Positions 9,171 to 57,814 of a stretch of 64,000 nt of DNA are shown piece by piece (within the stretch, counting starts at the first letter, position 1; every line of letters starts with the position of its first letter). The position numbers were made by a program, and so were the translations under genes. The notes under the pieces were generated by a model, which was not told the origin of the DNA, ran no database searches, and saw only the letters and a program-made list of their open reading frames with translations. Source of the stretch: an uncultured virus (IMG/VR IMGVR_UViG_3300032677_000021). Lineage: Duplodnaviria; Heunggongvirae; Uroviricota; Caudoviricetes. The stretch lies in the IMG/VR virus record IMGVR_UViG_3300032677_000021; one strand, written 5' to 3'.

Positions 9171-9200
9171 AGGCTGCTTTAATGCAATCTGCGTATTAGT
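9171..9200 (+). promoter_or_regulatory. phage promoter AGGC-N16-GCGTATTAGT (leaderless)
   Basis: exact core; ATG at 9207 coincides with the predicted +1. Confidence 0.8.
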
Positions 9201-9206
9201 GGGTGT

Positions 9207-9515
9207 ATGAACAAGTACGTTTACCAAATTCAAGGCGCACTAGAAGACAAAAACCAAAAACTCGTTGGTTTGCGTGTACTAGTGTGCGACCTGTATAATT
9301 TTGACTCCGTTGACGTACCGATTGGAATTTTAGACAAAGAGACAGCTAAGTACTTAGCTTTCCGTCTAAAGCTAACAGACGGCGCCTTGGTAATCCAAAA
9401 ACTACCCAACGGCGTCATTAACAAGATTAGGCTGCTGTTGGGAAAATACCTAGACAAATGGGTATTGGAAAACTTTTATGGCGATACTAGCAACACAAAA
9501 GGTGTTAACCCTTGA
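9207..9515 (+). CDS. hypothetical protein, leaderless
   Basis: first gene of the plus-strand arm. Confidence 0.65.
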   Translation: MNKYVYQIQGALEDKNQKLVGLRVLVCDLYNFDSVDVPIGILDKETAKYLAFRLKLTDGALVIQKLPNGVINKIRLLLGKYLDKWVLENFYGDTSNTKGVNP

Positions 9516-10470
9516 CTATTGGAAAATAGCGCAAGACTTAAAGCAGGGTGACATTGTATTTGACAGACTTGGCCGCAAGGTCCGGATAAAACTCGTCCAA
9601 CACCTAGACAAACGGCCATGCTATCGTGTATGGTTTAAAGACGGCACGTCAGTTTGCGGGGACGGGAACCTAAAGCTACCAGTAGAAACACCAAAGTACC
9701 GCAAAAGAATCTTTGAATACAAAGGCGTTAAGAAGTTTAAGAGGCCCTTGGTACTAAAACCCCTGTCCGAACTGATTAACCTGGAGCTTTTAGACAAACG
9801 AAACCGTTTAGTGTACAGCGTACCGACAGCCGGCATGCTAGAATTCCCCATTATGGACCTGCCAGTCCCGCCGTTTGTGTTTGGCCTATGGTTTTTCTGC
9901 CGTAGAAAAGACGGAACCATGAAAATTCCAGCGCAATACATGGACGAAGTTATGGAACGGCTTAAAGATTATGGCTACTTGCAAACTTACTGGCGTGATC
10001 CAGCCAAGCGGTACAGAGTTTACAGCACAAAGCCTACGGTTATGTCACACTTGGCACCAAACATACCGTACAAAATACCAAACAACTACCTACTGGCGAG
10101 TTCTGAACAACGAATCGAGCTGCTTAGTGGGATTATGCACGCAAAACCAAATCAATATAACCAAAAGTTAGATACGTTTCGGTTTACATCAAAGCATTTA
10201 CCAACCGTCAAGCGAGTTCAAGGGCTTGCCGAATCGTTGGGATGTAAGACAGTGCTCGAAGGTCCGGACAAAATAAACGGATACACTGTTTTTATTAAAA
10301 CCAAGCTAAAACTTTTACCACAGCAAACGCCAAAGCCTGCTAAGGTGCGGCAAAACTGGAGACTGATTACTAAAGTTGAAGAGATAACACCGCAAGCCTG
10401 TGTTCACATCGAAATAGATGGAGAGGATAACAGCATGTTGGTCGAAGAAGGATTTATTGCATGTCTTTAA
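9478..10470 (+). CDS. free-standing degenerate intein-like protein (Hint + LAGLIDADG folds)
   Basis: AILATQKVLT..W...DLKQGDIVFD (Hint N), PVPPFVFGLWF and RIELLSGIM (LAGLIDADG helices), ITKVEE..CVHIEID..MLVEEGFI (Hint C); catalytic residues missing. Confidence 0.75.
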   Translation: MAILATQKVLTLDYWKIAQDLKQGDIVFDRLGRKVRIKLVQHLDKRPCYRVWFKDGTSVCGDGNLKLPVETPKYRKRIFEYKGVKKFKRPLVLKPLSELINLELLDKRNRLVYSVPTAGMLEFPIMDLPVPPFVFGLWFFCRRKDGTMKIPAQYMDEVMERLKDYGYLQTYWRDPAKRYRVYSTKPTVMSHLAPNIPYKIPNNYLLASSEQRIELLSGIMHAKPNQYNQKLDTFRFTSKHLPTVKRVQGLAESLGCKTVLEGPDKINGYTVFIKTKLKLLPQQTPKPAKVRQNWRLITKVEEITPQACVHIEIDGEDNSMLVEEGFIACL

Positions 10471-11906
10471 GTAAAGAAGAACAAAAAGAAATATCCGAAT
10501 TTATCAAGGCGCGTAAGCACTGGCCTAAACCGGAACTAGACGCAGCGGTCTGGAGAATGACCTGGGCCAAGTCTGCACTAGCGCATCAAAAGGAGCCACC
10601 AGATGGTGAGTACGATACCTTCCTTATGCTTGCCGGTCGTGGATCTGGTAAGACGCACACTGCTAGCCACTGGCTTGGCATACGTGCTTGGCGTTACCCA
10701 GGCACACGCTGGCTTGTCACAGCCCCTACCTCTAACGACATACGAGCAACTTGTTTTGAGGGAGATTCCGGTCTGCTTAACATCATACCAAAGTCCCTTA
10801 TCCGAGACTACAACAAGTCCCTCTTTGAAATCACACTCGTCAACGGCTCGATCATTCAAGGCATTCCAGCCTCAGAGCCTGAACGATACCGTGGTAAACA
10901 ATACCATGGAGCTTGGTTCGATGAGCTGTGTGCCTTTGACTACCTCGACGATGCCTACGACGGCGTGCAGTTTACTCTGCGTCTTAAAGACCCAAGAATA
11001 CCTCGAGTCCAGCAAATCATTACTACAACCCCTAAGCCTAGGGAATTGATTGTAGACCTTGCCGAAGGTAAAATCGGCGGCGACGTGTACATGGTCAACG
11101 CCTCGTCGTTTGACAACCGAGAGAACCTGTCTGAAACATTCTTCAAACAGCTTGAGACTTATGACGGAACAGATATTGGTAGACAGGAGATTTATGGAGA
11201 GATCCTAGACCCAGAGTCCGCTGGTATTATCAAACGCAAGCAGTTCAAGATGTGGCCAGCCGATAAGCCCACACCAGAGCTGGAATACGTTCTGGCCAGC
11301 TACGATCCAGCTACCTCAGAAAAAACACACAACGACCCAACAGCTTGTACGGTGTGGGGTATCTTCCAGCAACAAGACGGCGGTACCAGTGCGATATTGT
11401 TGGACGCTTGGGACAACCACCTCTCTTACCCAGAACTTCGCCGTAAAGTAATCAACGACTTTAAGGAAGTAGTTTACGGCGCAGACAACACCTTTGCCAA
11501 AGGCAAAAAAGCAGACCTCATCCTCATGGAGGATAAATCAGCCGGTATTAGCCTCATACAAGAGCTCAGAGGCGCCGGAGTGCCAGTGCAAGGGTACAAC
11601 CCTGGGCGAGCCGACAAAGTCCAGCGACTGAACATTGTAGCCCCTTTGGTAGCTAAGGGAAAGATATTTATCCCCGAAGATCCAAAACAAAAGGGTGAGT
11701 TTGCTGACTGGACCAAACGGTTTATTCGCCAAGTCTGCTCGTTCCCTGAAATGCAGGGGCATGACGACTACGTAGACTCACTATCCCAAGCGCTTCGTAT
11801 TCTGAGGGATGATGGTTGGCTGCAGCTAGACTACCTACCACCGCGCGATTATGACTACGCAGACGACGATGTACGTAAGCGATTTGCCAATCCTTACGCC
11901 CAGTAG
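10461..11906 (+). CDS. terL: terminase large subunit
   Basis: Walker A AGRGSGKT, Walker B AWFDE, nuclease DPA / EDKSAG / HDDYVDS. Confidence 0.95.
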   Translation: MSLSKEEQKEISEFIKARKHWPKPELDAAVWRMTWAKSALAHQKEPPDGEYDTFLMLAGRGSGKTHTASHWLGIRAWRYPGTRWLVTAPTSNDIRATCFEGDSGLLNIIPKSLIRDYNKSLFEITLVNGSIIQGIPASEPERYRGKQYHGAWFDELCAFDYLDDAYDGVQFTLRLKDPRIPRVQQIITTTPKPRELIVDLAEGKIGGDVYMVNASSFDNRENLSETFFKQLETYDGTDIGRQEIYGEILDPESAGIIKRKQFKMWPADKPTPELEYVLASYDPATSEKTHNDPTACTVWGIFQQQDGGTSAILLDAWDNHLSYPELRRKVINDFKEVVYGADNTFAKGKKADLILMEDKSAGISLIQELRGAGVPVQGYNPGRADKVQRLNIVAPLVAKGKIFIPEDPKQKGEFADWTKRFIRQVCSFPEMQGHDDYVDSLSQALRILRDDGWLQLDYLPPRDYDYADDDVRKRFANPYAQ

Positions 11907-11935
11907 GGCGGATTGGTCCAAAATAGCGTATTAGT
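11906..11935 (+). promoter_or_regulatory. phage late-class promoter GGGC-N16-GCGTATTAGT (portal)
   Basis: exact bipartite motif. Confidence 0.85.
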
Positions 11936-11984
11936 TAAAATAAGGGCACACTTTCCGCCCACCAAATTCCAAATCAAATAATCT

Positions 11985-14909: not shown

Positions 14910-14911
14910 TA

Positions 14912-15139
14912 ATGGCAACTAAGAAAACTGGTGGCGACGAATTAGGTTTCCGCCACACATACAAACAAACCGGAGCTCAAGGCTATGCTGGCGGCCCTGG
15001 CGAGACAACAATCGACAAGGGTAATTCTGGCTCTAAGCGTGCTAACAACGCAGTACTTAACCAAAACAAAATGGCTAAAGACAGCAAAGTTGGTCCAGGT
15101 AAGAACCTCAAAGACATTGGCGGCGGTAACTTTTATTAA
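14912..15139 (+). CDS. small Gly/Lys-rich protein
   Basis: directly after the portal gene. Confidence 0.6.
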   Translation: MATKKTGGDELGFRHTYKQTGAQGYAGGPGETTIDKGNSGSKRANNAVLNQNKMAKDSKVGPGKNLKDIGGGNFY

Positions 15140-15145
15140 TATTTG

Positions 15146-15175
15146 GGGCGGATTTACTTCCGTCAGCGTATTAGT
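15146..15175 (+). promoter_or_regulatory. phage late-class promoter GGGC-N16-GCGTATTAGT (leaderless)
   Basis: exact bipartite motif; ATG at 15182 = predicted +1. Confidence 0.85.
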
Positions 15176-15181
15176 AAAAGT

Positions 15182-15376
15182 ATGAAGGACTTTATCAGTG
15201 AAATTATCGGTCGCGTAAGGACTGAAATAAAGGACCATGCAGAAGCCGTCACTGCGGGTACAAACATCAACACGTTTGATGATTACAAGCAACACATTGG
15301 CGTTATCCAAGGTTTGCAGTTAACTTTGGATATTGTCAATGAAATTTTGACGGAAGACGAAGAAGACGAATCGTAA
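15182..15376 (+). CDS. small head-module protein
   Basis: YKQHIGVIQGL helical motif, usual between portal and GroES in such phages. Confidence 0.65.
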   Translation: MKDFISEIIGRVRTEIKDHAEAVTAGTNINTFDDYKQHIGVIQGLQLTLDIVNEILTEDEEDES

Positions 15377-15397
15377 GATTCAGGAAAGGATTGCCGG

Positions 15398-15838
15398 ATG
15401 GCGATTGATTTTAAGGAGGGCGATGACCCGGATTTGCGCACTGAAGAAGAGTGCTTTCCTGACATTGACCCAGGTGTAGAAATTCTTGGTGACCGAGTAT
15501 TGGTGCAACTGCGCCGTGAAAAGGTAACAAGTAAAGGCGGAATCATCCTGGTGGATGAAACCAGGCAGACGTTGAAGTTTAATGAAACTGTAGCCAAAGT
15601 ACGTGGCATTGGACCCTTGGCATACAAGAGCCCAGACGACTTAACCCCATGGCCAGAAGGCAATTGGTGTAATGTTGGCGATTTAGTTCGCACAATTAAG
15701 TACGGCGGTGATCGTTTTGTTGTGGATCCTAACGACGGTGGTGCCGCAGTGGTATTTATTACGCTGCAAGCACGTGAAGTGATCTCCAAGATCAAATCGT
15801 TTGAGGCTGCACAGAAAATGAAAGCGTTTGTAGACTAA
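15398..15838 (+). CDS. groES: co-chaperonin GroES-like protein
   Basis: LGDRVLV...TSKGGIIL...V..IGP...VGDLV..KYGG. Confidence 0.9.
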   Translation: MAIDFKEGDDPDLRTEEECFPDIDPGVEILGDRVLVQLRREKVTSKGGIILVDETRQTLKFNETVAKVRGIGPLAYKSPDDLTPWPEGNWCNVGDLVRTIKYGGDRFVVDPNDGGAAVVFITLQAREVISKIKSFEAAQKMKAFVD

Positions 15839-15859
15839 TAACTTTGTAGAAAGTAGAGA

Positions 15860-16840: not shown

Positions 16841-16845
16841 TTATC

Positions 16846-17400: not shown

Positions 17401-17429
17401 CATTCTTCAAAAATAACAAAGGAAAATAA

Positions 17430-18092: not shown

Positions 18093-18109
18093 TAACGAAA
18101 GGATAAGCA

Positions 18110-19027: not shown

Positions 19028-19052
19028 TCAAAACCTCGCAGTAAGTCAAAAA

Positions 19053-19084: not shown

Positions 19085-19114
19085 GGGCGTTTTATAAGAA
19101 TTTAGCGTATTAGT
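19085..19114 (+). promoter_or_regulatory. phage late-class promoter GGGC-N16-GCGTATTAGT
   Basis: exact bipartite motif. Confidence 0.85.
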
Positions 19115-19210
19115 AAATATAGGTAGAATAGTCCACATATAGCTCCCGTAATCTACCCGGTGAGATAGTCAAGTATCTAGTGTGGATGCCCTCTTGATAG
19201 GAAATCAAAA

Positions 19211-21263: not shown

Positions 21264-21266
21264 TAA

Positions 21267-23040: not shown

Positions 23041-25031
23041 TGGCTACTTACTATTGGGTTGGTGGAACAGGCACCTGGAATACGTCTAGCAATACTAACT
23101 GGGCATTAACTTCAGGGGGAGTAGGTGGATTAGTAGGGCCTCCAACTTCTTCCGATGATGCTGTAATTGATACAAACTCAGGAACAGGAACAATTTTTTG
23201 CACAGGAGCAGTTTGTAATAACTTAACTGTTACTGCTTCTCAAGCTATTAATTTAGGAACAACAGCATCAACATATTCTGTATATGGAAATTTAACTTTT
23301 CCATCAGGCGGTTCATTTAATGCGTCTACCAGTAATGCCACAGTTACTTTTGCGGCTACTACAACAGGAAAAACCATTACTACAAATGGTAAATCTTTGG
23401 CAATAGTTATTTTTAATGGTGTTGGAGGTGGTTGGACTTTAGGAAGTGCTTTAACAACAACAGGAGCAATAACCTTAACCAATGGTAGTTTAAATACTGG
23501 AAATTACAATATTTCTTGCGCCAGTTTTGTTTATAGCGCAACAGGAACAGCAACTTTAACACTTGGCACTTCTACAATTACATTAAGTAACTCAGGAACA
23601 ATGTGGTCATTTGCTACAACCACAGGTCTTACATTTAGCGGTGCCTCTTCTACTATTGTTTTATCTAGCACATCAACAGCAACTAGGACATTTGCTGGTG
23701 GTGGGTTAACTTATGGAACATTAACCATAGGTGGTGCTACTGGAATTTCCAACCTTACTATTTCAGGTTCAAATACATTTTCTACATTAAATAGTCAAAA
23801 AACAGTAGCAAACACTATTATTTTTCCATCTGCTACTACAACAACTATTGGAACTTGGTCTGTCAGTGGTTCTTCTGGTAATCCAGTAACAGTTGTTAGT
23901 AATTCTTCAGGAGCATCTGCGACATTAACAATTACCAATCAAACATCAGGAGTTGATTATCTAATTGTTCAGGATATAACCTCTAACCTTGCTCCAGTTA
24001 CTTTTTACGCTGGAACTCATACCCAATTAAATTCAAATGTGCTTGGTGTTGCAGCTACTACACCTACGGCAAACCAATATGTTTATGTATTAACTGGCGG
24101 AACCTCTTGGACGGTTCCTGCAAACTGGAATAACTCTAACAATGCTATTCACCTTTTTGGTGGCGGCGGCGGCGGCGCAGGTTCTTACTATTCTGCTCCC
24201 AACGGAGCTGGCGGAGCTGGCGGTGGTGGTGGTGGGTATACAAAAGCAACCAATTTAACCTTATCTGGCAGTGTTTCTTATGCTGTAGGCGCAGGTGGCA
24301 CTGCCGCATTTGTTGGTTCAAATGGTGGTGCTGGTGGCTCTACTACCTTTAACTCAGGCGCTTATTCTGCTGGAGGCGGGGGTGGCGGGGTTTCAACCAC
24401 AACATCTTCAACTGGCGGAAGTGGTGGAGCAGGCTCCACTTATAATGGCGGTTCTGGCGGTTCCGGCGCACTAATCACTGTTGCAGGAAACGGAGTTGGC
24501 GGTGGCGGTGGTGGTGGTGCTGGTGGCCCATTAGGGGTTGGAGGAACTGGCGGTAATGGTTCATTTAGTACAGGTTCGGCTAGTTATGGCGGTGGCGGTG
24601 GTGGTGGTAATGGAGGAGGATCTGCTGGTGGAAATGCTATCGTAGCCACTTCTTCGGGTGCTGGGGGTAATAACAACGCGGGTTCCGGCGGCGGCGCAGC
24701 CGTAACTTCTGCAGGAAAAGGTAACCCTGGATTTAGTGGCGGCGGCGGTTCTGGTGGTCTTGGAAATTCAATCTCAACCGGCGGCATAGGCGGCGTCGGA
24801 ACTGATGTTGTTGGTATGGGTGGTGGTGGTGGTGAAGGTGGAACATCAGGTAACACAGTCCCCGCATCAAATACATCTTACTTTGGCGGCGGTGGCGGTG
24901 GCGGAGGTTTACCGCTTTCCGATGCAACGGGTAGGGGTGGTGCTGGCGCACAAGGCGGTATTATTATTGTTTATAAACTTGTTGGGGCAATTACTAATTT
25001 CAACTTCTTTGCCTTTTTTAACGGCGCTTAA
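23040..25031 (+). CDS. Gly-rich tail fibre / receptor-binding protein
   Basis: YWVGGTGTW beta-helix-like N-terminus, poly-Gly C-terminal domain ending GGIIIVY. Confidence 0.7.
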   Translation: MATYYWVGGTGTWNTSSNTNWALTSGGVGGLVGPPTSSDDAVIDTNSGTGTIFCTGAVCNNLTVTASQAINLGTTASTYSVYGNLTFPSGGSFNASTSNATVTFAATTTGKTITTNGKSLAIVIFNGVGGGWTLGSALTTTGAITLTNGSLNTGNYNISCASFVYSATGTATLTLGTSTITLSNSGTMWSFATTTGLTFSGASSTIVLSSTSTATRTFAGGGLTYGTLTIGGATGISNLTISGSNTFSTLNSQKTVANTIIFPSATTTTIGTWSVSGSSGNPVTVVSNSSGASATLTITNQTSGVDYLIVQDITSNLAPVTFYAGTHTQLNSNVLGVAATTPTANQYVYVLTGGTSWTVPANWNNSNNAIHLFGGGGGGAGSYYSAPNGAGGAGGGGGGYTKATNLTLSGSVSYAVGAGGTAAFVGSNGGAGGSTTFNSGAYSAGGGGGGVSTTTSSTGGSGGAGSTYNGGSGGSGALITVAGNGVGGGGGGGAGGPLGVGGTGGNGSFSTGSASYGGGGGGGNGGGSAGGNAIVATSSGAGGNNNAGSGGGAAVTSAGKGNPGFSGGGGSGGLGNSISTGGIGGVGTDVVGMGGGGGEGGTSGNTVPASNTSYFGGGGGGGGLPLSDATGRGGAGAQGGIIIVYKLVGAITNFNFFAFFNGA

Positions 25032-25051
25032 AAGCCTTTTTGCGTATTAGT
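25022..25051 (+). promoter_or_regulatory. phage promoter CGGC-N14-TT-GCGTATTAGT (glycosyltransferase cassette)
   Basis: exact core with the TT extension and a near-GGGC box. Confidence 0.8.
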
Positions 25052-25099
25052 GGTAGTAGGACGATATAATATAGGTTCGTACGAACTTGACAGGAATAC

Positions 25100-31253: not shown

Positions 31254-31728
31254 TATTGCCAGTGTTGGCAGCGCAATTTATATTTATCTTATAGTAGCTG
31301 CCGTTTCTGGTGCGGTAGTGGGGTATTCAGCATATAGCTGGACTTCAGACTACTATATTGCTAAAATAGAAAAATCAAACATTCAAGCAGAACAAAAAGT
31401 AAACGATATACAACGAAAAGGAGACCAAATTGTCGCAACATACATACAACAAATCGGAAAGCTCAGCGACACAAATGTCAGCCTCCAACGCCAAATTTCT
31501 AAAGCTGTACGTCCTCTGGACAATAGCTCTTGTAGTATTACTAATGGCTATGTGCGGCTGTACAACGCAAGTGCAACTGGTCAAACCTCAAGCCCCAGCA
31601 GCTCTGATGGTGCCACCACCTCCCTTGACCTTGCTACCGTCCTCAGCGTCGCAGCAGAAAACAACGCAAAATACCTCAAAGTAGCCCAACAGCTAGAAGA
31701 CCTTCAGGCGTACGAAAACGCAAAATAA
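31231..31728 (+). CDS. rz: inner-membrane spanin
   Basis: N-terminal TM, coiled coil, C...GYVRLYN. Confidence 0.75.
   Translation: MWKNLLSSIASVGSAIYIYLIVAAVSGAVVGYSAYSWTSDYYIAKIEKSNIQAEQKVNDIQRKGDQIVATYIQQIGKLSDTNVSLQRQISKAVRPLDNSSCSITNGYVRLYNASATGQTSSPSSSDGATTSLDLATVLSVAAENNAKYLKVAQQLEDLQAYENAK
31475..31684 (+). CDS. rz1: outer-membrane spanin lipoprotein embedded in rz
   Basis: +1 frame, signal peptide, lipobox AMCGC, Pro-rich PAALMVPPPPL. Confidence 0.7.
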   Translation: MSASNAKFLKLYVLWTIALVVLLMAMCGCTTQVQLVKPQAPAALMVPPPPLTLLPSSASQQKTTQNTSK

Positions 31729-31739
31729 ATCCCCAAAGT

Positions 31740-31749
31740 GCGTATTAGT
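31740..31749 (+). promoter_or_regulatory. phage promoter core GCGTATTAGT before the endolysin
   Basis: exact core, lacking both the GGGC box and the TT extension. Confidence 0.7.
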
Positions 31750-31774
31750 AGTGCTACGCAAAAAAGGAGTTAGT

Positions 31775-32296
31775 ATGAACAAAAGGCTATTTTTAGCTAT
31801 TTGGTTGTGCACCCTCATCTGGGTGCTACAGAGCTTTCAATTTATTAAAACAGTAGAAAAAGACATCGTGGCAATTACAGAATCAACTTTTGAGTTAATT
31901 TCTGGCTTTGAGGGCAAGCGCCATAAAGCCTATAAAGACTCACGCGGATTGTGGACCATTGGCGTTGGGCATCTTATTAAGCCAACAGAGCAGTGGATGC
32001 TCCACACGGTATTAACAGACCAGCAAGTAGAAGACCTGTTTAAAGACGATTTAAAGTGGTGTGACGAGGCCGTAGCGACTTCAGTAAGGGTACCCCTTAA
32101 CCAGAACCAAATGGACGCCTTATACAGCCTCTGCTTCAATATTGGAGCGGATCACTTTAAGCAGTCTGAGGTAGTGCTGCACCTTAATAATAATGACTAC
32201 AATCGGGCTGCAAACGCCTTTATGAATTGGGTCACACCACCAGTATTAAAACCCCGCCGAGAAAAGGAACGGGAGCTATTTTTAAGGGCGATTTAG
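31775..32296 (+). CDS. GH24 lysozyme endolysin with hydrophobic N-terminus (SAR/signal-like)
   Basis: FEG....Y.D..G.WTIGVGH catalytic triad, NQMDAL.SL.FNIG, RREKE. Confidence 0.9.
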   Translation: MNKRLFLAIWLCTLIWVLQSFQFIKTVEKDIVAITESTFELISGFEGKRHKAYKDSRGLWTIGVGHLIKPTEQWMLHTVLTDQQVEDLFKDDLKWCDEAVATSVRVPLNQNQMDALYSLCFNIGADHFKQSEVVLHLNNNDYNRAANAFMNWVTPPVLKPRREKERELFLRAI

Positions 32297-32315
32297 TCCT
32301 TTTTAGCGTATTAGT
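32286..32315 (+). promoter_or_regulatory. phage late-class promoter GGGC-N16-GCGTATTAGT
   Basis: exact bipartite motif. Confidence 0.85.
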
Positions 32316-32361
32316 AGATATAAGGGCTGATCACCCGTTAACCAACAACCTCGAGGACATA

Positions 32362-39099: not shown

Positions 39100-39129
39100 G
39101 GGCAAAAAGCGCAAAAAATGCGTATTAGT
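39100..39129 (+). promoter_or_regulatory. phage late-class promoter GGGC-N16-GCGTATTAGT
   Basis: exact bipartite motif. Confidence 0.85.
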
Positions 39130-39155
39130 GTATATAGAAGCATACTGGATATAAA

Positions 39156-48551: not shown

Positions 48552-48918
48552 TCCAATTAGCAAACTGTTTCAATTGTTCTTTTGTAGCTTTGTTTTTCAT
48601 AGCGTTTGCTAAATTAGAAAGCCACTGAACATTGCCCATTACATAACCTTTATTTGGGTCAATTCGGTCTAAAGAAGGGCTGGTTGGTAATATCTTTCCG
48701 GTTTGGTGCCCCCAAGATAACTCGGTTTTAAATACTGGACATTTATCTGGAAAAATAGATAGTAAATCCTCTAGTGTTAAATCAAATTTTAAGTTTAACT
48801 TTTTGGCTCGATATTTAGTTTCAAATAATCTTCGCTTTATACAACCCTCTTTGGTTGACATTAATTTATCTTGATGCTTTTTTGAACGTATTTTTTGCTT
48901 TTCTTTTTGAGATAGCAT
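48535..48918 (-). CDS. HNH-type endonuclease
   Basis: CPVF...PSLDRIDPNKGYVMGNVQWLS..AN..K. Confidence 0.85.
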   Translation of the reverse strand: MLSQKEKQKIRSKKHQDKLMSTKEGCIKRRLFETKYRAKKLNLKFDLTLEDLLSIFPDKCPVFKTELSWGHQTGKILPTSPSLDRIDPNKGYVMGNVQWLSNLANAMKNKATKEQLKQFANWITESL

Positions 48919-49011
48919 TTTGATACCCCTGAATAGTAGTTTGAAAGCGATAGGTGAGTCTTAGATTCAGGCTAAGACAACGTTGTCGACACGCTGTCCC
49001 TATCTACTTTT

Positions 49012-49041
49012 ACTAATACGCGTATTTGAAACTAAATGCCC
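49012..49041 (-). promoter_or_regulatory. phage late-class promoter GGGC-N16-GCGTATTAGT (HNH gene)
   Basis: exact bipartite motif. Confidence 0.8.
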
Positions 49042-50975: not shown

Positions 50976-51012
50976 ATATGCTCCTTAGGCTAACAGACGT
51001 ATCTGTACGTAT

Positions 51013-51024
51013 ACTAATACGCAA
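51013..51024 (-). promoter_or_regulatory. phage promoter, TT-extended class (polA)
   Basis: TTGCGTATTAGT. Confidence 0.8.
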
Positions 51025-51046
51025 AAAAGGGGCCCCGAAGGGCCCC
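51023..51046 (-). terminator. intrinsic terminator
   Basis: GGGGCCC-TTCG-GGGCCCC followed by TTTTTT. Confidence 0.85.
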
Positions 51047-51068
51047 GAAATACCACCATGTGAAATAG

Positions 51069-51260
51069 TTACTTAAATCTATTCAGTATTGCTAACTTCT
51101 CTTCGTTGGACATAACATACCATTTAGAAATCTCCTCCCTGGTTCGTTGGCACCCTCGACATGTGTCCGTAACGTCGAGGGTACAGATACCGTTGCATGG
51201 AGATTTGACCATCTCCACGCTAGGTTCCAGTTCCACAGGTTGAGTGGAGGACAGTCCCAT
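51069..51260 (-). CDS. DUF1289-like small Cys protein
   Basis: SPCNGIC.....C.GC.RT.EEI..W; start uncertain. Confidence 0.7.
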   Translation of the reverse strand: MGLSSTQPVELEPSVEMVKSPCNGICTLDVTDTCRGCQRTREEISKWYVMSNEEKLAILNRFK

Positions 51261-51263
51261 GGA

Positions 51264-53162: not shown

Positions 53163-53577
53163 TCACCATTCTCCACATAGTCATTGCGTTTTTGTTTTTA
53201 TCACCACCCATAATCCATGCTGTATTTTGAGGACCATAACCCATTTGTTTTAGAGCTTTTACCATGGAAACAACTTCCTCAGAAAACTTTTTAGGATACG
53301 ACCATTTTTCTGTTTGTTGCTTATTAAAAACGGGTTGTATCTTTTGAATTAACTTAGATTCTAGATTTTCAGCTTCGGTATTTGTCAGCCCTTTATGTAG
53401 TATTGTTACAATGTCAAATAAAGTATATCCATTATCTAAAAAATGATTCAAATACTTTGTGTATTCAGGATCCCTATTATTTCGTCGGCACAGCCAAGCC
53501 CTTTCGTAAGACCCTTTACCGATATATAAAATCTCTCCGGTTTCAGGATCAGCATGTTGGTATACATAATACTTCAT
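53155..53577 (-). CDS. GIY-YIG-type endonuclease
   Basis: YVY...YIGKG...R...E..LI....P.FN; AT-rich. Confidence 0.75.
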   Translation of the reverse strand: MKYYVYQHADPETGEILYIGKGSYERAWLCRRNNRDPEYTKYLNHFLDNGYTLFDIVTILHKGLTNTEAENLESKLIQKIQPVFNKQQTEKWSYPKKFSEEVVSMVKALKQMGYGPQNTAWIMGGDKNKNAMTMWRMVNE

Positions 53578-53611
53578 GGTGTCTTTCTTATTATTGGTTG
53601 GTCATAAGGGC

Positions 53612-53642
53612 AAAAAAGCCCGACGCAGTTTCTACGCCGGGC
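53612..53642 (-). terminator. intrinsic terminator after the SSB gene
   Basis: GCCCGGCGTAG-AAA-CTGCGTCGGGC followed by TTTTTT. Confidence 0.75.
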
Positions 53643-53664
53643 CGCCCACTTCTATGGGTACTAC

Positions 53665-54183
53665 TTAGATAGCAAAGTCTGCAGCGGCAGATGTTGCACC
53701 GCCTAACTTTTCTCCATCTTCTAACTTCTGGACGTTATTCAAACCACATGCAATGCCTTTAGAGCCTTGTGCGTTGTATGGGTAGAACGTAATCGAAGCA
53801 CGGCCATAGCAGCCACTGTAGAACTCATTCATGTCCATGATTGGGTTCAAGTCAGCGTCTACAACGCCAGGCTTTTGTGCTGAGTTTGCATTGATAAAGT
53901 AAGAGCCTGCGTATGCTGGATCGTCTTTCTCTTCGTCGCCGTCACGTAAGCCACCTTTAAGACCTTTAGGCACTGAACCACCAAAGTAAGCAGCTGCGCC
54001 AGCCTTAGTGTCTTCGTATGCCTTTTGAATCTTGGCAATGGTTTCCTTGTCAGACTTAGGAATGATGATTGATACTGAATACTTTGGTGTACCACCCTCT
54101 ACTGATGCTTTTGGTTGGAACACGTTAGCGTATGAGAAACGAACTTTACCAGTTACGATTTTTACTTTAGCTGCTTGAGTCAT
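53665..54183 (-). CDS. ssDNA-binding protein (DUF2815 / T7 gp2.5-like)
   Basis: VRFSYANVF.P, LRDGD, FYSGCY.R, GIACGLNNVQK..DGE. Confidence 0.9.
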   Translation of the reverse strand: MTQAAKVKIVTGKVRFSYANVFQPKASVEGGTPKYSVSIIIPKSDKETIAKIQKAYEDTKAGAAAYFGGSVPKGLKGGLRDGDEEKDDPAYAGSYFINANSAQKPGVVDADLNPIMDMNEFYSGCYGRASITFYPYNAQGSKGIACGLNNVQKLEDGEKLGGATSAAADFAI

Positions 54184-54251
54184 ATATTACCTTTTTAACA
54201 TTAGTACTGGACTTCAATAGGTGCCAGCACGTCTAACCTTTTACTGATGTT

Positions 54252-54263
54252 ACTAATACGCAA
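54252..54263 (-). promoter_or_regulatory. phage promoter, TT-extended class (SSB)
   Basis: TTGCGTATTAGT; palindrome at 54278-54294. Confidence 0.8.
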
Positions 54264-54297
54264 ATCTACTGCTTTAAATTTCACAATGTGAGAAAGT

Positions 54298-54555
54298 TTA
54301 AGCGTCGTACAAAATGCCCAACTTCTCCATTGCGTGCTTCATTGCTAGAGCCTTGATAAAGTCTGAACGGTATTCAAACTCTTCTAATAAATCCGGCTCT
54401 TCGCCAATAACGTCAACTACTTCGTAGATTGCGGCTCTTAATTGCTCCACACCCTCTCTGTGCCTGCTTCCCGGTAGAACTTCAAAATCAGATAAATACT
54501 TATTTACCAATATGTCCGGAACTTCAAACTCCGAACCATAACATTCTACCATCAT
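54298..54555 (-). CDS. hypothetical acidic protein
   Basis: GAGG RBS before the ATG at 54555. Confidence 0.6.
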   Translation of the reverse strand: MMVECYGSEFEVPDILVNKYLSDFEVLPGSRHREGVEQLRAAIYEVVDVIGEEPDLLEEFEYRSDFIKALAMKHAMEKLGILYDA

Positions 54556-54566
54556 AGGCGCCTCTT

Positions 54567-54716
54567 TTATAATTGTAATGTCACCATAACCAGACCCACA
54601 TTTCCAAGGGCGTACCCTAAAAATGAGATCCCCATGCCTACTTGGCCTTTCATAAAAAATTGAATTGCTACAAACATATACACACAACCAATAAAACCAA
54701 TCAACCATGCGTTCAT
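54567..54716 (-). CDS. 49-aa two-TM membrane protein (not in ORF track)
   Basis: ATGA coupling with the upstream gene, GGAGG RBS; MNAWLIGFIGCVY...GYALGNVGL. Confidence 0.65.
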   Translation of the reverse strand: MNAWLIGFIGCVYMFVAIQFFMKGQVGMGISFLGYALGNVGLVMVTLQL

Positions 54717-55846
54717 GCAAAGTCCTCCTTAGCGTCTTCTTTGGCCTTAACTAGCTTTGGCGAACCTTCTGGGCGTTGGATTAGCGCCCCTAGCCAAGCT
54801 GTTACTTGCCCTTTTGGTCCTAGCTTTTCCAGAGCTGCTATGGATTTGAGCTTAGGTGGTTCCCATATAGCTTGTGGGTCCATACCCTTTTCAACTAAGA
54901 CCGTAGCGGCCATTGCTGAGTCTGAAATCTTACGGTGTGTTGTCGTCGTTGCTAGCTTGTATCCAGAGGGTACAATGTTCTTTTCTACTGCTCGGTTTAG
55001 TGCAAACTCTTCTACGTCATTGACCCAAGTACGTAGCTGCTGCGCCTTAACTAAGACTTGACTGACTTCTTCTTCGTCGAGGAGCGGGGCTTCTTTGAAC
55101 TCGAGCTTGGCGAGCTCGGTGTTGAAGTCGCTGCGGGCGCGGCACGTCGCTTTGGCGCGGCAGAACTGGCACCACTCACCTGGGAGGAACTCCCCGCTGC
55201 CTGCCCACGCTTTCTTGGCTTTGGGTTTGACGTAGTAGTTTGCCCAATCGAGCAACTTACTGATGCTTGTCCCGTCGGTACTGATAGAGTCAAGCCTTGG
55301 TTGGTGAATGGTGTAGCTGACTTCCTTGATTTCTGGCCATTCTTCTTTGAACTTAGCGTATGCTCCGAGGGCATAGAGGCGGAGCTGAGTGTTATCTTGC
55401 GCGTGAACGGGCACTCCTTTTCCAAACTTAAGGTCGATGACTCGAATGGAGTGCTTAGAAAGTATAACCACATCGGCCGTACCAAAGCCGTCAGGAACCC
55501 AGTCACTGAAGTCGACACGCTGTTCAAAAAGCGGCGTGTCCCCTTCACCAATTTGAGAACGAACGTACAGTACATAATTGTCAACGTGAGCTTCAAAATC
55601 TTCATTGAAATAAGGTGTGTTTCTAATGATCTCGTATTCTTTTTCATACTCTTCAATTCCTATCTGTCCAAAATAATGTCGTAGTTTAATCTCTCCAAGG
55701 GAGTGGGCCATAGTGCCTTCTTGACTGAAGTCAAAAGAACCTGCGGCGCGTTTTTGTTCTGGGAGTGTTGCCTCTAATCTAGCTGACGGTGTACAGGATA
55801 GCCATCGTTTGGATCCTGATGCAGATAGTATGGCGTGTGCGGTCAT
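54713..55846 (-). CDS. DUF2800 Cas4-like PD-(D/E)xK exonuclease
   Basis: HAILSAS...W..C, EGT.AH, FGTAD, DLKFGKG, QL..YA, CQFC.....C. Confidence 0.9.
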   Translation of the reverse strand: MTAHAILSASGSKRWLSCTPSARLEATLPEQKRAAGSFDFSQEGTMAHSLGEIKLRHYFGQIGIEEYEKEYEIIRNTPYFNEDFEAHVDNYVLYVRSQIGEGDTPLFEQRVDFSDWVPDGFGTADVVILSKHSIRVIDLKFGKGVPVHAQDNTQLRLYALGAYAKFKEEWPEIKEVSYTIHQPRLDSISTDGTSISKLLDWANYYVKPKAKKAWAGSGEFLPGEWCQFCRAKATCRARSDFNTELAKLEFKEAPLLDEEEVSQVLVKAQQLRTWVNDVEEFALNRAVEKNIVPSGYKLATTTTHRKISDSAMAATVLVEKGMDPQAIWEPPKLKSIAALEKLGPKGQVTAWLGALIQRPEGSPKLVKAKEDAKEDFA

Positions 55847-55878
55847 ATTATTCTCTTATTCGGGTTAATCGTATATTT

Positions 55879-55890
55879 ACTAATACGCAA
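55879..55890 (-). promoter_or_regulatory. phage promoter, TT-extended class (exonuclease)
   Basis: TTGCGTATTAGT. Confidence 0.8.
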
Positions 55891-55892
55891 AT

Positions 55893-56294
55893 TCAGTCAT
55901 TTTGCGCAGTATATTTTTTAATATATTCTTGGGCGGATTCTAAATTTTCTAGTGATTCTTTAAAGTGCCCCAAACCGGAGTTGCAGTGTGTGCAAAGTAT
56001 TCCACGCACAGCCAACGTAGTGTGGTCATGGTCTACGCAAGGGTTTTTGTCTGGCACAAACGGCAGCTTACAAATCTCGCAGGCGTTTCCTTGATCGGCT
56101 ATCTTTTGGCGATACTCTTCAGAAGTAATGCCGTAGTTGTTCATCCGCATTCTATCCAAGCGTCTGTCCCGGTTGTCCTTGTAGTCTTGATTCTTACAGG
56201 AACGACACCAACTTTGCAGTCCGTCTTTTGAGTTTTTGCTTTTACTAAACTGGATAAGCGGCTGTGTTTCGTCGCATTTAGAGCACTTCTTCAT
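55893..56294 (-). CDS. endonuclease VII family protein
   Basis: CEIC...VDHDH....VRGILC..CN.GLG.F. Confidence 0.85.
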   Translation of the reverse strand: MKKCSKCDETQPLIQFSKSKNSKDGLQSWCRSCKNQDYKDNRDRRLDRMRMNNYGITSEEYRQKIADQGNACEICKLPFVPDKNPCVDHDHTTLAVRGILCTHCNSGLGHFKESLENLESAQEYIKKYTAQND

Positions 56295-56372
56295 GGAACC
56301 CTCACTGGTTATTTGGTGGGTAGCCAGTGAGTGAGCACTGGCAGGGCCGCTAAGCCGATTCCCCTTTGAGTT

Positions 56373-56762
56373 TTATGTGTTAAGTTTTGCTATTAAATCA
56401 GAAACTTCTTTGTCGTAGTCCACTACGATTTCTTGCTTAATGTTTGCTTTGATCTCTTGACGGTCTTTGTAATCGTCTGGGTATTGTCCACGTAGGGCGA
56501 TCTCGGCTACGCGGCTATTAAAACCCCGGTTGTCAATGTTGGCAAGCATCATGTTTTCCCAGTACGCTTGGCCGTAGGTAGTGGCCATTGACATGGTTTC
56601 AACAAAGAACTCGTCGTCTTTTTTCCACTTTGCCGCGGTGTCTTTGCTGATATGAATTGCTGCGTACATCGCCTTTTGGGACGCGCCTTGTTTACCCAGT
56701 TCTAAAATGGTCTCAGCCATCTCTGGGGTAAATACTTTTTTGGTTGGTTTTTTAGCTGCCAC
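56373..56762 (-). CDS. terS: terminase small subunit
   Basis: PE.AE.ILELG..G.S.....I.IS..T...W....EF......A....QAYWE HTH pattern. Confidence 0.7.
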   Translation of the reverse strand: MAAKKPTKKVFTPEMAETILELGKQGASQKAMYAAIHISKDTAAKWKKDDEFFVETMSMATTYGQAYWENMMLANIDNRGFNSRVAEIALRGQYPDDYKDRQEIKANIKQEIVVDYDKEVSDLIAKLNT

Positions 56763-57018
56763 ACTTCCACCTTTTTAATGCCGCTGCTTTGCGGGTTGGT
56801 TTTCCACTTTCGTCCTTCATAGGACCTTTTACGCCACTCATACGAGCGCAGAATGAATCTTTACGAGAGCCACCCTCTGGTTGGGGTGCCTTTAAATTTG
56901 AGCCAGTAGCCGCGTTATACTTAGCACGACCTTTGGCGGTAAGCCCAGCACCTTGCGATGCTGGTAGCTTTTCACCACGACCAATAGCTAGGGATACAGA
57001 CTTCTTTTTAGTTGCCAT
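56752..57018 (-). CDS. small basic conserved phage protein
   Basis: GLTAKGRAKYN..TGSNLKAP...RKDSFCARM...AL.RW.C. Confidence 0.7.
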   Translation of the reverse strand: MATKKKSVSLAIGRGEKLPASQGAGLTAKGRAKYNAATGSNLKAPQPEGGSRKDSFCARMSGVKGPMKDESGKPTRKAAALKRWKCGS

Positions 57019-57170
57019 TATTTGTTCTTAGCTGTCTTTGCAGCCTCTTTAAATTGTTTTGCTGTAGGGGCGCCTTTGGTACCCGGCTTGCGCATCTTTT
57101 CGCCTGAGCCAGCTTTAATGCGCTCTTGCTTAGCGTGGATGTTTGCGTATAAACCGGGTTTAGTTGCCAT
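57018..57170 (-). CDS. 50-aa basic protein (not in ORF track)
   Basis: TAATG coupling; MATKPGLYANIHAKQERIKAGSGEKMRKPG. Confidence 0.7.
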   Translation of the reverse strand: MATKPGLYANIHAKQERIKAGSGEKMRKPGTKGAPTAKQFKEAAKTAKNK

Positions 57171-57266
57171 TTTTGTTACTTAATGTATAGTTATGTGTAT
57201 AGTTGTTGACAAAAAGTATATGTATCAACAGTTTTGTTGACATTTTTGTAAAGTTTTGCAGGCTAA

Positions 57267-57320
57267 TTGTAAAGTTAAAAAGCAGTGATTGTAAAGTTAA
57301 AAAGCAGTGATTGTAAAGTT
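57267..57320. repeat. 22-bp non-coding tandem repeat
   Basis: TTGTAAAGTTAAAAAGCAGTGA about 2.4 times. Confidence 0.75.
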
Positions 57321-57423
57321 ATTGACATTGGGCAGGAAATCCCAATCTTGGAGTTGGTTACCTGTGGGTCTGGTGATATTAAGTGCCGATGCCTCCGGTC
57401 ACACCTTGCCTAATCTCAAAAAT

Positions 57424-57669
57424 TTAAAAGCCTGTTACTTTCTTTGCAGCTTTTACTAACTCTTTTTCAGTGCTCTCGCTGACGAACTTATTGATCTGCA
57501 TTGCTGCGTCAATGATTTCGGTCATTGTAGGGAACTTTGGAGCTGCTTCAGCTAATTGTTTGGATGTCTTGTCCATTAGATCCCACGCAGCCATCTGGGC
57601 TTTGTAGGTGTTCTCTAATAGCTCTTTTGCTTGGTAAAACGCTGCATAGCGCAATTCGAATGGGTTCAT
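57424..57669 (-). CDS. conserved small phage protein
   Basis: NPFELR...AKELL...FPT..EII..A...N.FV. Confidence 0.7.
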   Translation of the reverse strand: MNPFELRYAAFYQAKELLENTYKAQMAAWDLMDKTSKQLAEAAPKFPTMTEIIDAAMQINKFVSESTEKELVKAAKKVTGF

Positions 57670-57778
57670 TTTGTTTCTTTCTGTGTGTGTGATGTGTGTA
57701 AGGGTGCTGGTCTTTCCCAGCGGTCAGGAGTCCAGTCACCTCTCGCTTACTGGTTCGGAGCGCTTCACAGCGTGTCCT
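57670..57778 (-). ncRNA. structured 5' leader with CA tract
   Basis: three hairpins between the promoter and the ATG. Confidence 0.45.
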
Positions 57779-57784
57779 ATATTA

Positions 57785-57814
57785 ACTAATACGCATTTTC
57801 GTACTAAATCGCCC
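57785..57814 (-). promoter_or_regulatory. phage late-class promoter GGGC-N16-GCGTATTAGT (terS operon)
   Basis: exact bipartite motif. Confidence 0.85.

What the first reader, a model, noticed from the sequence alone, without database searches (positions are those of the whole stretch)
9171..57814. Two mutually exclusive promoter classes that track gene function
Seen: seven promoters have GGGC exactly 16 bp upstream of the core (11906, 15146, 19085, 32286, 39100, and minus-strand 49038 and 57811), and none of them has TT directly before the core. The five promoters for primase, polA, SSB, exonuclease and the sigma4-like gene all read TT-GCGTATTAGT, and none has GGGC at that spacing. The rest are intermediate: 9171 has AGGC, 25022 has CGGC plus TT, and the endolysin promoter has neither. 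Inference: TT is an extended -10 read by sigma3, and GGGC is a -35 read by the separate sigma4-like protein.
Basis: partly seen in the sequence, partly recalled or inferred. Interest (0 to 1): 0.78.

Follow-up and report, generated by a model that had tools for sequence, protein, structure and literature searches.

The report
Two promoter classes, split phage sigma
A phage genome carries 15 copies of its own promoter, about half with an extra upstream GGGCG box that probably needs a separately encoded piece of the phage's sigma factor, which would give a simple middle-to-late gene switch.

Summary
There are 15 exact GCGTATTAGT sites. Seven have GGGC exactly 16 bp upstream and none of these has TT. 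Six of the other eight have TT.

The window is a phage genome. Its sigma factor has regions 1.2, 2 and 3 but no region 4. A separate 104-aa protein (59228-59542, minus strand) folds like sigma region 4, and 11 of 33 relatives match Pfam Sigma70_r4_2.

In relatives the 10-bp core changes together with the sigma. The GGGCG box and the sigma4-like recognition helix stay invariant, and the box keeps a fixed spacing. So GGGCG is most likely a -35-type element read by the sigma4-like protein.

TT is a real, conserved feature of box-less promoters: 97 of 115 and 60 of 74 unique sites. Exclusivity is only a tendency, because box promoters carry TT in 6 of 67 and 30 of 102 relatives' sites. The extended -10 is more likely GCG inside the core.

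A third architecture exists: a palindrome at about -41 on replication-gene promoters. Timing and factor dependence are untested.

Verdict: a new variant of split-sigma control.

The parts
3775..4341 (-). Phage sigma factor, 188 aa from the ATG at 4341. It has regions 1.2, 2 and 3 and no region 4.
   Evidence: Pfam finds Sigma70_r1_2, r2 and r3 only. The RpoS profile is matched over positions 12-187 of 285. All 120 of 120 listed relatives are 171-207 aa and none has an r4 domain. No phage-type core lies upstream, so the gene is presumably read by host RNA polymerase.
59228..59542 (-). Sigma region-4-like protein, 104 aa (P0003). Its ATG lies at +7..+9 after the core of promoter 59549, so it is probably translated from a leaderless mRNA.
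   Evidence: AF2 model with pLDDT 87-91 over residues 44-104. VIA-align gives Z 7.5 (rmsd 2.0, 57 residues aligned) to SigR region 4, and the top 18 rows of the unbiased search are all sigma factors. Pfam Sigma70_r4_2 hits 11 of 33 family members, but not this member.
11906..11942 (+). Box-class promoter: GGGCGG, 14 nt, TA, core, predicted start A at 11942. It precedes the portal gene.
   Evidence: The box is kept in 14 of 14 unique orthologous sites.
15146..15182 (+). Box-class promoter. It precedes a leaderless 64-aa ORF (15182-15376), a GroES-like gene, a scaffold-like gene and the head genes.
   Evidence: The box is kept in 8 of 9 unique orthologs.
19085..19121 (+). Box-class promoter behind a terminator hairpin. 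It precedes the tail and tail-fibre module.
   Evidence: Orthologs L114, L156 and L163 carry the box together with TT.
32286..32322 (+). Box-class promoter. It precedes virion structural genes.
39100..39136 (+). Box-class promoter (GGGCAA). It precedes large proteins of the late arm that match no family.
49005..49041 (-). Box-class promoter. It precedes an HNH/endonuclease VII-like gene (48535-48918).
57778..57814 (-). Box-class promoter. It precedes small ORFs, a small-terminase-like gene and endonuclease VII.
   Evidence: All 25 unique group-A orthologs keep GGGCG and none has TT.
9171..9207 (+). Promoter with a degenerate box (AGGC) and CT. The leaderless ORF 9207-9515 follows, then the terminase large-subunit ORFs.
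   Evidence: AGGC is kept in 6 of 10 unique orthologs.
25022..25058 (+). Promoter with CGGC and TT. It precedes glycosyltransferase-like genes, a tail fibre and lysis genes.
   Evidence: In orthologs TT is kept in 5 of 5 while CGGC is not kept.
31720..31756 (+). Promoter with neither element (GT before the core). It precedes the endolysin.
2668..2717 (-). Box-less promoter with TT and the palindrome TCACATGGTGA (2704-2714), about 30 nt upstream of the core. It precedes the primase.
   Evidence: The palindrome region is recognisable in 12 of 12 and TT is kept in 11 of 12 unique orthologs, by my reading.
51006..51065 (-). Box-less promoter. The order is half-palindrome TCACATGGTGG (51053-51063), a G+C-rich terminator-like hairpin, a T-run that runs into the core, then the core. 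It precedes polA.
54245..54294 (-). Box-less promoter with TT and the palindrome TCACATTGTGA (54281-54291). It precedes the gp2.5-type SSB and the ribonucleotide reductase.
   Evidence: TT is kept in 17 of 17 unique orthologs.
55872..55908 (-). Box-less promoter with TT. It precedes the exonuclease.
   Evidence: By my reading, 18 of 22 unique orthologs have TT and 4 have AT. Most orthologs have a terminator hairpin whose T-run abuts the core.
59542..59578 (-). Box-less promoter with TT, embedded in the last codons of the helicase gene. It precedes the sigma4-like gene.
   Evidence: None of the 34 unique orthologs has the box; 30 have TT and 4 have AT (my reading).

Best explanation
The 15 sites are promoters for host RNA polymerase carrying the phage's own sigma, which has regions 1.2-3 and no region 4.

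The 10-bp core is the -10 element plus its upstream extension. It spans about -16 to -7 if transcription starts at the invariant A that lies 7 nt after the core.

Seven promoters carry GGGCG(G) at about -36 to -31, and two more carry degenerate versions. This is a -35-type element most likely read by the separately encoded sigma4-like protein P0003. P0003 would sit on the polymerase in the place of sigma region 4, so the phage sigma is split into two genes.

P0003 itself is made from a box-less promoter. The inferred order is:
1. Host polymerase makes the sigma.
2. Sigma alone fires the box-less promoters (replication genes and the P0003 gene).
3. Sigma plus P0003 fires the box promoters (virion and packaging genes).

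Box-less promoters compensate for the missing -35 contact with a T-tract directly upstream of the core (TT at about -18/-17). Three of them also have a palindromic site centred near -41 for an unidentified dimeric factor. The anticorrelation between TT and GGGC is a compensation tendency, not a rule.

Shown here: the motifs, their spacing and their conservation; the domain content of the sigma; and the predicted fold of P0003. Inferred: the start site, which protein reads which element, and the timing.
For: Motifs and spacing:
- 7 of 15 cores have GGGC at offset 16.
- Among relatives' unique sites, GGGC falls at offset 16 in 67 of 182 (same core) and 102 of 229 (other cores). No other offset exceeds 7.

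Start site: A at +7 in 15 of 15 and a pyrimidine at +6 in 15 of 15. ATG sits exactly at +7..+9 at three promoters (9191, 15166, 59549), and this is kept in relatives.

Sigma without region 4: (120 of 120 listed). The sigma is present in 5 of 5 complete relatives.

P0003 is sigma4-like: (11 of 33).

Co-variation:
- All 15 sequences whose sigma is at least 73% identical use GCGTATTAGT. All 9 with sigma at most 52% identical use TTGCAT-type cores.
- Sigma regions 2.4/3.0 differ between the groups, while P0003's C-terminal helix (consensus VTEKYWRYHF.KG, with conservative changes in the two most distant genomes, G005 and G006) and the GGGCG box are kept in every clade.

Cascade logic: none of the 34 unique orthologs of the P0003 promoter has the box, and no phage core lies upstream of the sigma gene.

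TT: 97 of 115 and 60 of 74 box-less unique sites have it, against 6 of 67 and 30 of 102 box sites.

Gene functions follow the classes.

Precedent for split sigmas and for phage sigmas with single or bipartite promoter elements comes from passages read.
Against: - No transcript data exist: no RNA run was listed. The start site, the timing and the factor dependence are all inference.
- P0003 itself has no Pfam, NCBIfam or PDB sequence hit. The Foldseek E-values are weak (0.26 and worse). Z of 7.5 is in the range the tool calls middling for small helical domains.
- A sigma4-type HTH also fits a free activator.
- Counts in relatives are of related, not independent, sequences, and the loci were sampled around only two genes.
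- Promoter 25042, which is box-less and has TT, drives tail-fibre and lysis genes. So the classes do not track function perfectly.
Confidence: 0.55

Rival explanations
1. P0003 is not a sigma subunit. It is a free late activator (a sigma4-type HTH protein, as in the RinA/ArpU-type phage late regulators) that binds GGGCG and recruits the sigma holoenzyme. Alternatively, another phage protein binds the box, and P0003 is a flap-binding mimic used for host shut-off.
For: The fold evidence identifies only an HTH of the sigma4 type. LuxR/NarL-type regulators appear lower in the same list at Z 4.3-5.3. The RinA paper was seen in search listings and abstract only. phiEco32 gp79 shows that small phage proteins can act at the sigma4 / RNA-channel site (abstract).
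Against: The box sits where a -35 element sits, at a spacing fixed to the base pair in 169 unique sites. This is typical of an element read from within the holoenzyme. The partner sigma lacks exactly the domain that P0003 resembles. The top 18 structural matches are sigma factors, not regulators.
Confidence: 0.2
2. The box only sets promoter strength, since virion genes need more transcript, and there is no temporal switch. Both classes would fire together once the sigma is made.
For: Nothing in the sequence gives timing. Degenerate boxes (AGGC at 9171, CGGC at 25022) suggest a graded series. Promoter 25042, which is box-less, drives late-type genes.
Against: The sigma4-like gene lies behind a box-less promoter in all 34 unique orthologs. 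Box promoters also drive packaging genes inside the replication arm (57785, 49012). A functional split of this kind is what a temporal class predicts.
Confidence: 0.15
3. TT is not a contacted element. It is a by-product of neighbouring features: terminator T-runs that abut the core, coding constraints, and AT-rich spacers. The anticorrelation with GGGC in this genome would then be lineage chance.
For: - At polA, and in most exonuclease orthologs, the T-run belongs to a terminator hairpin.
- The P0003 promoter lies inside helicase codons.
- 0 TT in 7 has chance probability 0.30.
- In four complete relatives box promoters have TT in 2 of 5, 4 of 6, 3 of 6 and 4 of 7 cases.
Against: T directly before the core occurs in 99% of 115 box-less unique sites, against 27% of 67 box sites. 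TT occurs in 84% and 81% of box-less sites in two clades, including SSB and primase promoters that have no hairpin.
Confidence: 0.25
4. The motif is the promoter of a phage single-subunit (T7-type) RNA polymerase, with a conserved upstream block and a TA just before the start.
For: The layout recalls such promoters: a conserved block of about 10 bp, 5 variable bases, then TA and G. This resemblance is recalled, not tested.
Against: No RNA polymerase family was found in the 57 ORFs scanned with PHROGs or in 12 ORFs scanned with Pfam, including the unassigned large ones. A sigma factor is present, and the core changes with it.
Confidence: 0.03

Closest known systems
T4 gp55 + gp33, and SPO1 gp33 + gp34 (two-protein phage late sigmas)
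   Same: A phage supplies the promoter-recognition function of sigma as two separate polypeptides that act on host core polymerase for late genes. This is described in passages of bioRxiv 10.64898/2026.10.01.756105. The T4 review PMC2988020 was seen as a listing and abstract only.
   Different: By my recollection, T4 gp33 does not read DNA, T4 late promoters have no -35 element, and activation needs the sliding clamp. Here the second protein looks like a DNA-reading region 4, and a conserved box sits at -35. Here also the sigma2-3 piece seems to work alone on a second promoter class.
B. subtilis SigO-RsoA and Tn916 Sig7-Sig8 (cellular/ICE split sigma factors)
   Same: Two proteins together provide regions 2 and 4 and read the -10 and -35 elements (passages).
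   Different: By my recollection those pairs are encoded side by side, and per the passages read they act together on one promoter type. Here the two genes are separated by the primase gene, the part of the genome outside the window and the helicase gene (about 9 kb apart in the complete relative G003). They are under different control, and the large piece is of the RpoD/RpoS type with region 3. Sequence relatedness to RsoA or Sig8 was not tested.
phiEco32 gp36 with gp79
   Same: A phage sigma of about 200 aa on host core. It has a highly conserved single element 6-8 bp upstream of the start at middle and late promoters, an opposed early/middle versus late gene arrangement, and a small accessory phage protein acting at the sigma4 / RNA-channel site (PMC8948821 passages; PMC12276001 abstract and sections 21-22).
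   Different: gp36 contains both a sigma2-like and a sigma4-like domain in one chain and contacts the -35 region itself. gp79 is not sigma4-like. The sigma here has no room for a fourth domain.
Salmonella phage 7-11 gp47 late promoters
   Same: A bipartite phage-sigma promoter with a fixed 16-bp gap between an upstream element and a -10-type element, mapped experimentally.
   Different: It has one sigma with its own region 4, one promoter class and no middle class.
Extended -10 and 'mix and match' bacterial promoters
   Same: Promoters without a usable -35 element compensate with extra contacts just upstream of the -10 element. This is established knowledge; PMC2613000 was seen as a listing and abstract only.
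   Different: The canonical TG motif is absent in this clade. The invariant bases are GCG, with TT further upstream. The reading domain is unknown.

Membership tests
Sigma-70 family sigma factor (3775-4341, minus strand) | Region 2 (core binding and -10 recognition) | tested here: met
   Pfam Sigma70_r2, E 4e-07, 30.2 bits against a cut-off of 24.
Sigma-70 family sigma factor (3775-4341, minus strand) | Regions 1.2 and 3 (group 1-3 type) | tested here: met
   Pfam r1_2 E 1.6e-06 and r3 E 1.4e-06, both above their cut-offs. Best NCBIfam matches are RpoS and RpoD.
Sigma-70 family sigma factor (3775-4341, minus strand) | Region 4 (-35 recognition, flap binding) | tested here: not met
   No r4 hit. 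The protein ends at RpoS profile position 187 of 285. None of the 120 listed relatives has r4.
Sigma-70 region 4 domain (P0003, 59228-59542, minus strand) | Sequence match to the r4 profiles | tested here: inconclusive
   P0003 itself matches 0 families at E up to 10. 11 of 33 aligned relatives match Sigma70_r4_2, best E 5.1e-05. The profile search against PDB sequences found no sigma. hhalign against one full-length sigma gave probability 1.7%.
Sigma-70 region 4 domain (P0003, 59228-59542, minus strand) | Region-4 fold (helical domain ending in an HTH) | tested here: met
   Residues 43-104 align to whole region-4 domains with Z 5.7-7.5 (for example SigR r4: rmsd 2.0 over 57 of 65 residues). 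Ranks 1-18 of 48,161 chains are sigma factors. Caveat: Z under 8 is rated middling by the tool.
Sigma-70 region 4 domain (P0003, 59228-59542, minus strand) | Binds the beta-flap tip and reads a -35 element | not testable with these tools
   Only indirect evidence: the box lies at -36..-31 with fixed spacing, and the helix and the box are both invariant.
[quoted passage not shown]
   Both genes are present in the window and in 5 of 5 complete relatives.
Two-subunit (split) sigma factor | [quoted passage not shown] | not testable with these tools
   No experiment was possible. The one co-fold of the two proteins is recorded under Tried and rejected.
Extended -10 promoter (TGn type) | TG one base upstream of the -10 hexamer | tested here: not met
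   The core reads GCG-TATTAG-T in 15 of 15 sites. Other clades read TTG-CATTAT-T. In neither reading does TG sit at the canonical offset. TT lies further upstream.

The most novel reading that the evidence does not exclude
A widespread family of uncultured phages times its late genes by supplying sigma region 4 in trans. One sigma2-3 subunit forms a holoenzyme that does not need a -35 element and serves the replication genes. That same holoenzyme transcribes a leaderless mRNA for a free-standing region-4 subunit. When this subunit arrives, it converts the holoenzyme into a form that reads the -35-type box and serves the GGGCG-box virion promoters. The -10 specificity has drifted with the sigma between clades, while the -35 reader and its box have stayed frozen. 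The family is large: 398 viral contigs encode the sigma4-like protein and 499 protein clusters match it.
Probability: 0.4. Interest if true: 0.75.

Novelty: new variant of a known kind. Interest (0 to 1): 0.6.

Why it matters
Split sigma factors are known, but in the described cases both pieces act together on one promoter type. Here a modular sigma would give two holoenzyme forms and two promoter classes from one -10 reader, which is a very economical middle-to-late switch. It is also directly testable with two small proteins and two short promoters, and would make a compact orthogonal regulatory part. In addition, it gives a promoter grammar (core, box, start site, leaderless genes) for annotating a large group of uncultured phage genomes.

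Tried and rejected
- Co-fold of the sigma (A2) with the sigma4-like protein (A1): no verdict, score 0.01. In a holoenzyme the two need not touch each other.
- RNA runs holding window 53000-60000: none was listed, so no start sites or timing could be read.
- Sequence routes to name P0003 gave no sigma hit: Pfam and NCBIfam on P0003 itself, PHROGs, a profile search against PDB sequences, tblastn against deposited phages (no match), and hhalign against one 807-aa sigma (probability 1.7%).
- Foldseek alone gave no match at E <= 0.001, although its list was dominated by sigma region 4.
- The protein atlas gave only unnamed viral clusters. One cluster, at score 0.92, has Sigma70_r4 on 20% of its members.
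- A search for longer, fused forms of the sigma found one unrelated-looking 807-aa protein at E 1e-9. Typical 250-370-aa sigmas fell within the 'near' search, and none of the 120 listed had region 4.
- Host-type sigma70 promoter scan of 2600-9300: 12 sites against 8.0 +/- 2.8 expected, which is not an enrichment. Three 10-of-12 matches on the minus strand (7454, 7320, 5297) remain candidate early promoters.
- Single-subunit RNA polymerase reading: rejected.
- I first read the upstream GCGATTTAGT at 32288 and 57803 as a second copy of the core. Relatives do not keep it beyond GGGCG(G), so I dropped that reading.
- The earlier-findings index held nothing for this genome.
- Literature: searches found no paper on this motif or this phage group. 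The 8 papers holding the 10-mer are unrelated.
- Supplements of PMC8948821 (promoter tables) were not opened.

Full report
WHAT THE WINDOW IS.
PHROGs and Pfam scans of 57 ORFs show a tailed-phage genome.
- A rightward arm (about 9200-48550) holds terminase, portal, head, collagen-like tail fibres, glycosyltransferases, lysis genes and large proteins that match no family.
- A leftward arm holds small early ORFs (about 8900-4400), a sigma factor (3775-4341), primase, helicase, a gp2.5-type SSB, exonuclease, endonuclease VII, class II ribonucleotide reductase and DNA polymerase A.
- No deposited phage is close. The portal is at best 50% identical to a spring-water contig and to Caulobacter phages.
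- The window's own assembly is not held. A near-identical 43.6-kb viral record carries 10 copies of the core.

THE OBSERVATION.
- The window holds 15 exact copies of GCGTATTAGT, all pointing at downstream genes.
The expectation is 0.01 per shuffle and 0 of 100 shuffles reach 7.
- None of the seven has TT before the core. Six of the other eight do.
- Fisher's test gives p = 0.007 (post hoc). At the TT frequency of these spacers (0.16), 0 TT in 7 has probability 0.30, whereas 6 or more in 8 has probability 3e-4. The box and the TT enrichment are the signals. The absence of TT from box sites, taken alone, is not.

ANATOMY BEYOND THE FINDING.
(a) Start site. A at +7 and a pyrimidine at +6 after the core are invariant, 15 of 15. 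At 9191, 15166 and 59549 an ATG sits exactly at +7..+9 and opens a conserved ORF (9207-9515; 15182-15376; the sigma4-like gene) with no room for a ribosome-binding site. This ATG is kept in relatives. I take the A as the transcription start, which makes these three mRNAs leaderless. With that numbering the core spans -16..-7, TT is at -18/-17 and the box is at -36..-31.
(b) The box. It is longer than GGGC: the consensus is t(A/G)GGGCG(g). Box promoters also share ATA(G)G around the start.
(c) A third architecture. The primase and SSB promoters carry the palindrome TCACA-NN-GTGA 30 nt upstream of the core, centred near -41. The polA promoter has a half-site 11 bp further up, followed by a terminator-like hairpin whose T-run runs into the core.

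THE PROTEINS.
The sigma:
- It has Pfam regions 1.2, 2 and 3 only.
- It matches the RpoS model over positions 12-187 of 285.
- It belongs to a family in which all 120 listed members (of 268 hits) are 171-207 aa and none has a region-4 domain.

The 104-aa product of 59228-59542 (P0003):
- It has no family hit of its own.
- Its family is large: 499 clusters and 398 viral contigs.
- 11 of 33 aligned members match Sigma70_r4_2, best E 5.1e-05.
- An AlphaFold model is confident over residues 44-104.
- In an unbiased structural search of 48,161 representative chains, ranks 1-18 are all sigma factors, aligned through their region 4 (Z 6.1-7.5). LuxR/NarL-type regulators come lower.
- The tool warns that Z below 8 is middling, so I treat the fold as sigma4-type HTH and not as proof of function.
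- The N-terminal 40 residues are predicted disordered but contain a nearly invariant acidic motif. Its role is unknown.

COMPARATIVE EVIDENCE.
I fetched 160 related viral loci around two genes and five complete relatives.

First, spacing. Among unique promoter sequences of relatives, GGGC falls at offset 16 in 67 of 182 sites with the same core, and in 102 of 229 sites with other cores. No other offset exceeds 7.

Second, orthologous promoters keep their class while the spacers diverge.
- Portal: 14 of 14 unique orthologs keep the box.
- 15166: 8 of 9 keep the box.
- 57785: all 25 group-A orthologs keep the box.
- The sigma4-like gene promoter is box-less in 34 of 34.
- SSB keeps TT in 17 of 17.

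Third, more distant clades use a different 10-mer in the same register: TTGCATTATT, TTGCATTAAT or TTGCATAAGT. Their late promoters keep the same GGGCG(G) box at the same distance.
- The core type follows the sigma. All 15 sequences with a sigma at least 73% identical use GCGTATTAGT, and all 9 with at most 52% identity use the TTGCAT types.
- The two sigma groups differ in the stretch that, by my recollection of sigma-70 structure, forms regions 2.4 and 3.0. These regions read the upstream end of the -10 element and the extended -10.
- The last helix of P0003 is almost invariant in every clade.
- This pairing is the strongest argument for who reads what: variable core with variable sigma, frozen box with frozen helix. 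It remains a correlation.

TT AND THE CLAIM OF EXCLUSIVITY.
- TT is a real feature of box-less promoters. It occurs in 97 of 115 unique sites with this core and 60 of 74 with other cores. T directly before the core occurs in 99% of the 115.
- It is much rarer in box promoters, at 6 of 67 and 30 of 102, but it is not excluded. At least 2 of the 6 are terminator-hairpin coincidences at the polA promoter. Three are true box promoters (L114, L156, L163).
- By genome, from my count of the listings, box promoters with TT number 0 of 7 (window), 0 of 6 (G002), 2 of 5 (G004), 4 of 6 (G003), 3 of 6 (G005) and 4 of 7 (G006).
- Strict exclusivity therefore holds only in the window and its nearest relative. 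It is best read as compensation: promoters without the -35-type contact need the T-tract, and those with it do not.
- Several T-runs double as terminator tails (polA, and most exonuclease orthologs).
- All these counts are of related sequences and are not independent events.

THE PALINDROME.
- In relatives it is found only in box-less promoters: 30 of 115 and 14 of 77, against 0 of 70 and 0 of 104 box promoters. Apart from two sites (offsets 20 and 41), it lies at offset 30-31.
- It marks the primase and SSB promoters, with a half-site at polA.
- Its centre near -41 is where a factor would overlap the -35 position. I cannot tell whether that factor activates or represses, nor which protein it is.

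MECHANISM PROPOSED.
1. Host polymerase transcribes the early leftward genes, including the sigma. No phage core lies upstream of the sigma gene. Candidate host-type promoters are not enriched.
2. Sigma holoenzyme, lacking region 4, fires the box-less promoters through the long -10-type core plus the T-tract. These make the replication proteins and, from a leaderless mRNA, the sigma4-like protein.
3. That protein takes the region-4 place on the polymerase and reads GGGCG, turning on virion and packaging genes. These include two box promoters inside the replication arm, 57785 (small-terminase-like gene and endonuclease VII) and 49012 (HNH-type endonuclease).
The steps from 'who reads what' onward are inference.

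COMPARISON WITH WHAT IS KNOWN.
- Two-protein sigmas are established: T4 gp55/gp33, SPO1 gp33/gp34, SigO-RsoA and Tn916 Sig7-8 (passages).
- phiEco32 gp36 was thought to lack region 4 and to use single-element promoters (passages). Its cryo-EM structure shows a sigma4-like C-terminal domain contacting the -35 region, helped by gp79 (abstract and sections 21-22).
- Phage 7-11 uses a bipartite element with a 16-bp gap.
- The present case differs in three ways. It combines box-less and bipartite promoters in one genome. It uses an RpoD/RpoS-type sigma cut after region 3. And it places the region-4 module under control of the box-less class.
- I found no paper on this motif or this phage group.

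VERDICT.
It is a new variant of split-sigma control, and a testable one.

Noticed in passing
window 2702-2717, 54279-54294, 51053-51063 (minus-strand promoters): The palindrome TTTCACA-NN-GTGAAA is centred near -41 of the primase and SSB promoters, and a half-site lies one helical turn further up at polA. In relatives it occurs only in box-less promoters (30 of 115 and 14 of 77, against 0 of 174 box promoters), almost always at a fixed offset. It probably binds an unidentified dimeric regulator of the replication genes.
   Followed up: partly
window 9207-9515, 15182-15376, 59228-59542: Three ORFs start with an ATG exactly 7 nt after a promoter core and have no ribosome-binding site. This is conserved in relatives. 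They are probably leaderless mRNAs, and one of them encodes the sigma4-like protein.
   Followed up: partly
window 2770-3260: A non-coding stretch between the early genes and the primase promoter. It has two identical 30-nt hairpin units (2864-2893, 3067-3096), 96-nt inverted arms around an A/T-rich centre, and repeated ATCCACAG units. It looks like a replication origin or another regulatory region.
   Followed up: no
window 9478-10470 and 10461-11906: The terminase large subunit is spread over two overlapping ORFs (N-terminal and C-terminal parts by PHROGs). This could be a frameshift, a true split or a sequencing error.
   Followed up: no
G003, G005, G006 (loci L177-L192) against the window: The 10-bp promoter core differs between clades (GCGTATTAGT, TTGCATTATT, TTGCATTAAT, TTGCATAAGT) in step with a jump in sigma identity from at least 73% to at most 52%. 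This is a natural series for studying how -10 specificity evolves.
   Followed up: partly
window 51023-51046; orthologs of the 55879 promoter in L027-L068: G+C-rich terminator hairpins stand directly against promoter cores, so the terminator T-run is also the promoter T-tract. These form compact terminator-promoter units between replication genes.
   Followed up: no
P0003 residues 14-32: The N-terminal segment of the sigma4-like protein carries a nearly invariant acidic motif (TPRLSDEELDPIEQDD) in a region predicted to be disordered. It might contact the polymerase or the sigma. Its function is unknown.
   Followed up: no
G005 positions 1-170 and 65960-66080; G006: The complete relative G005 has tandem 18-nt repeats at both ends. 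G006 holds a 10-mer repeated 91 times, probably in a repetitive fibre gene.
   Followed up: no
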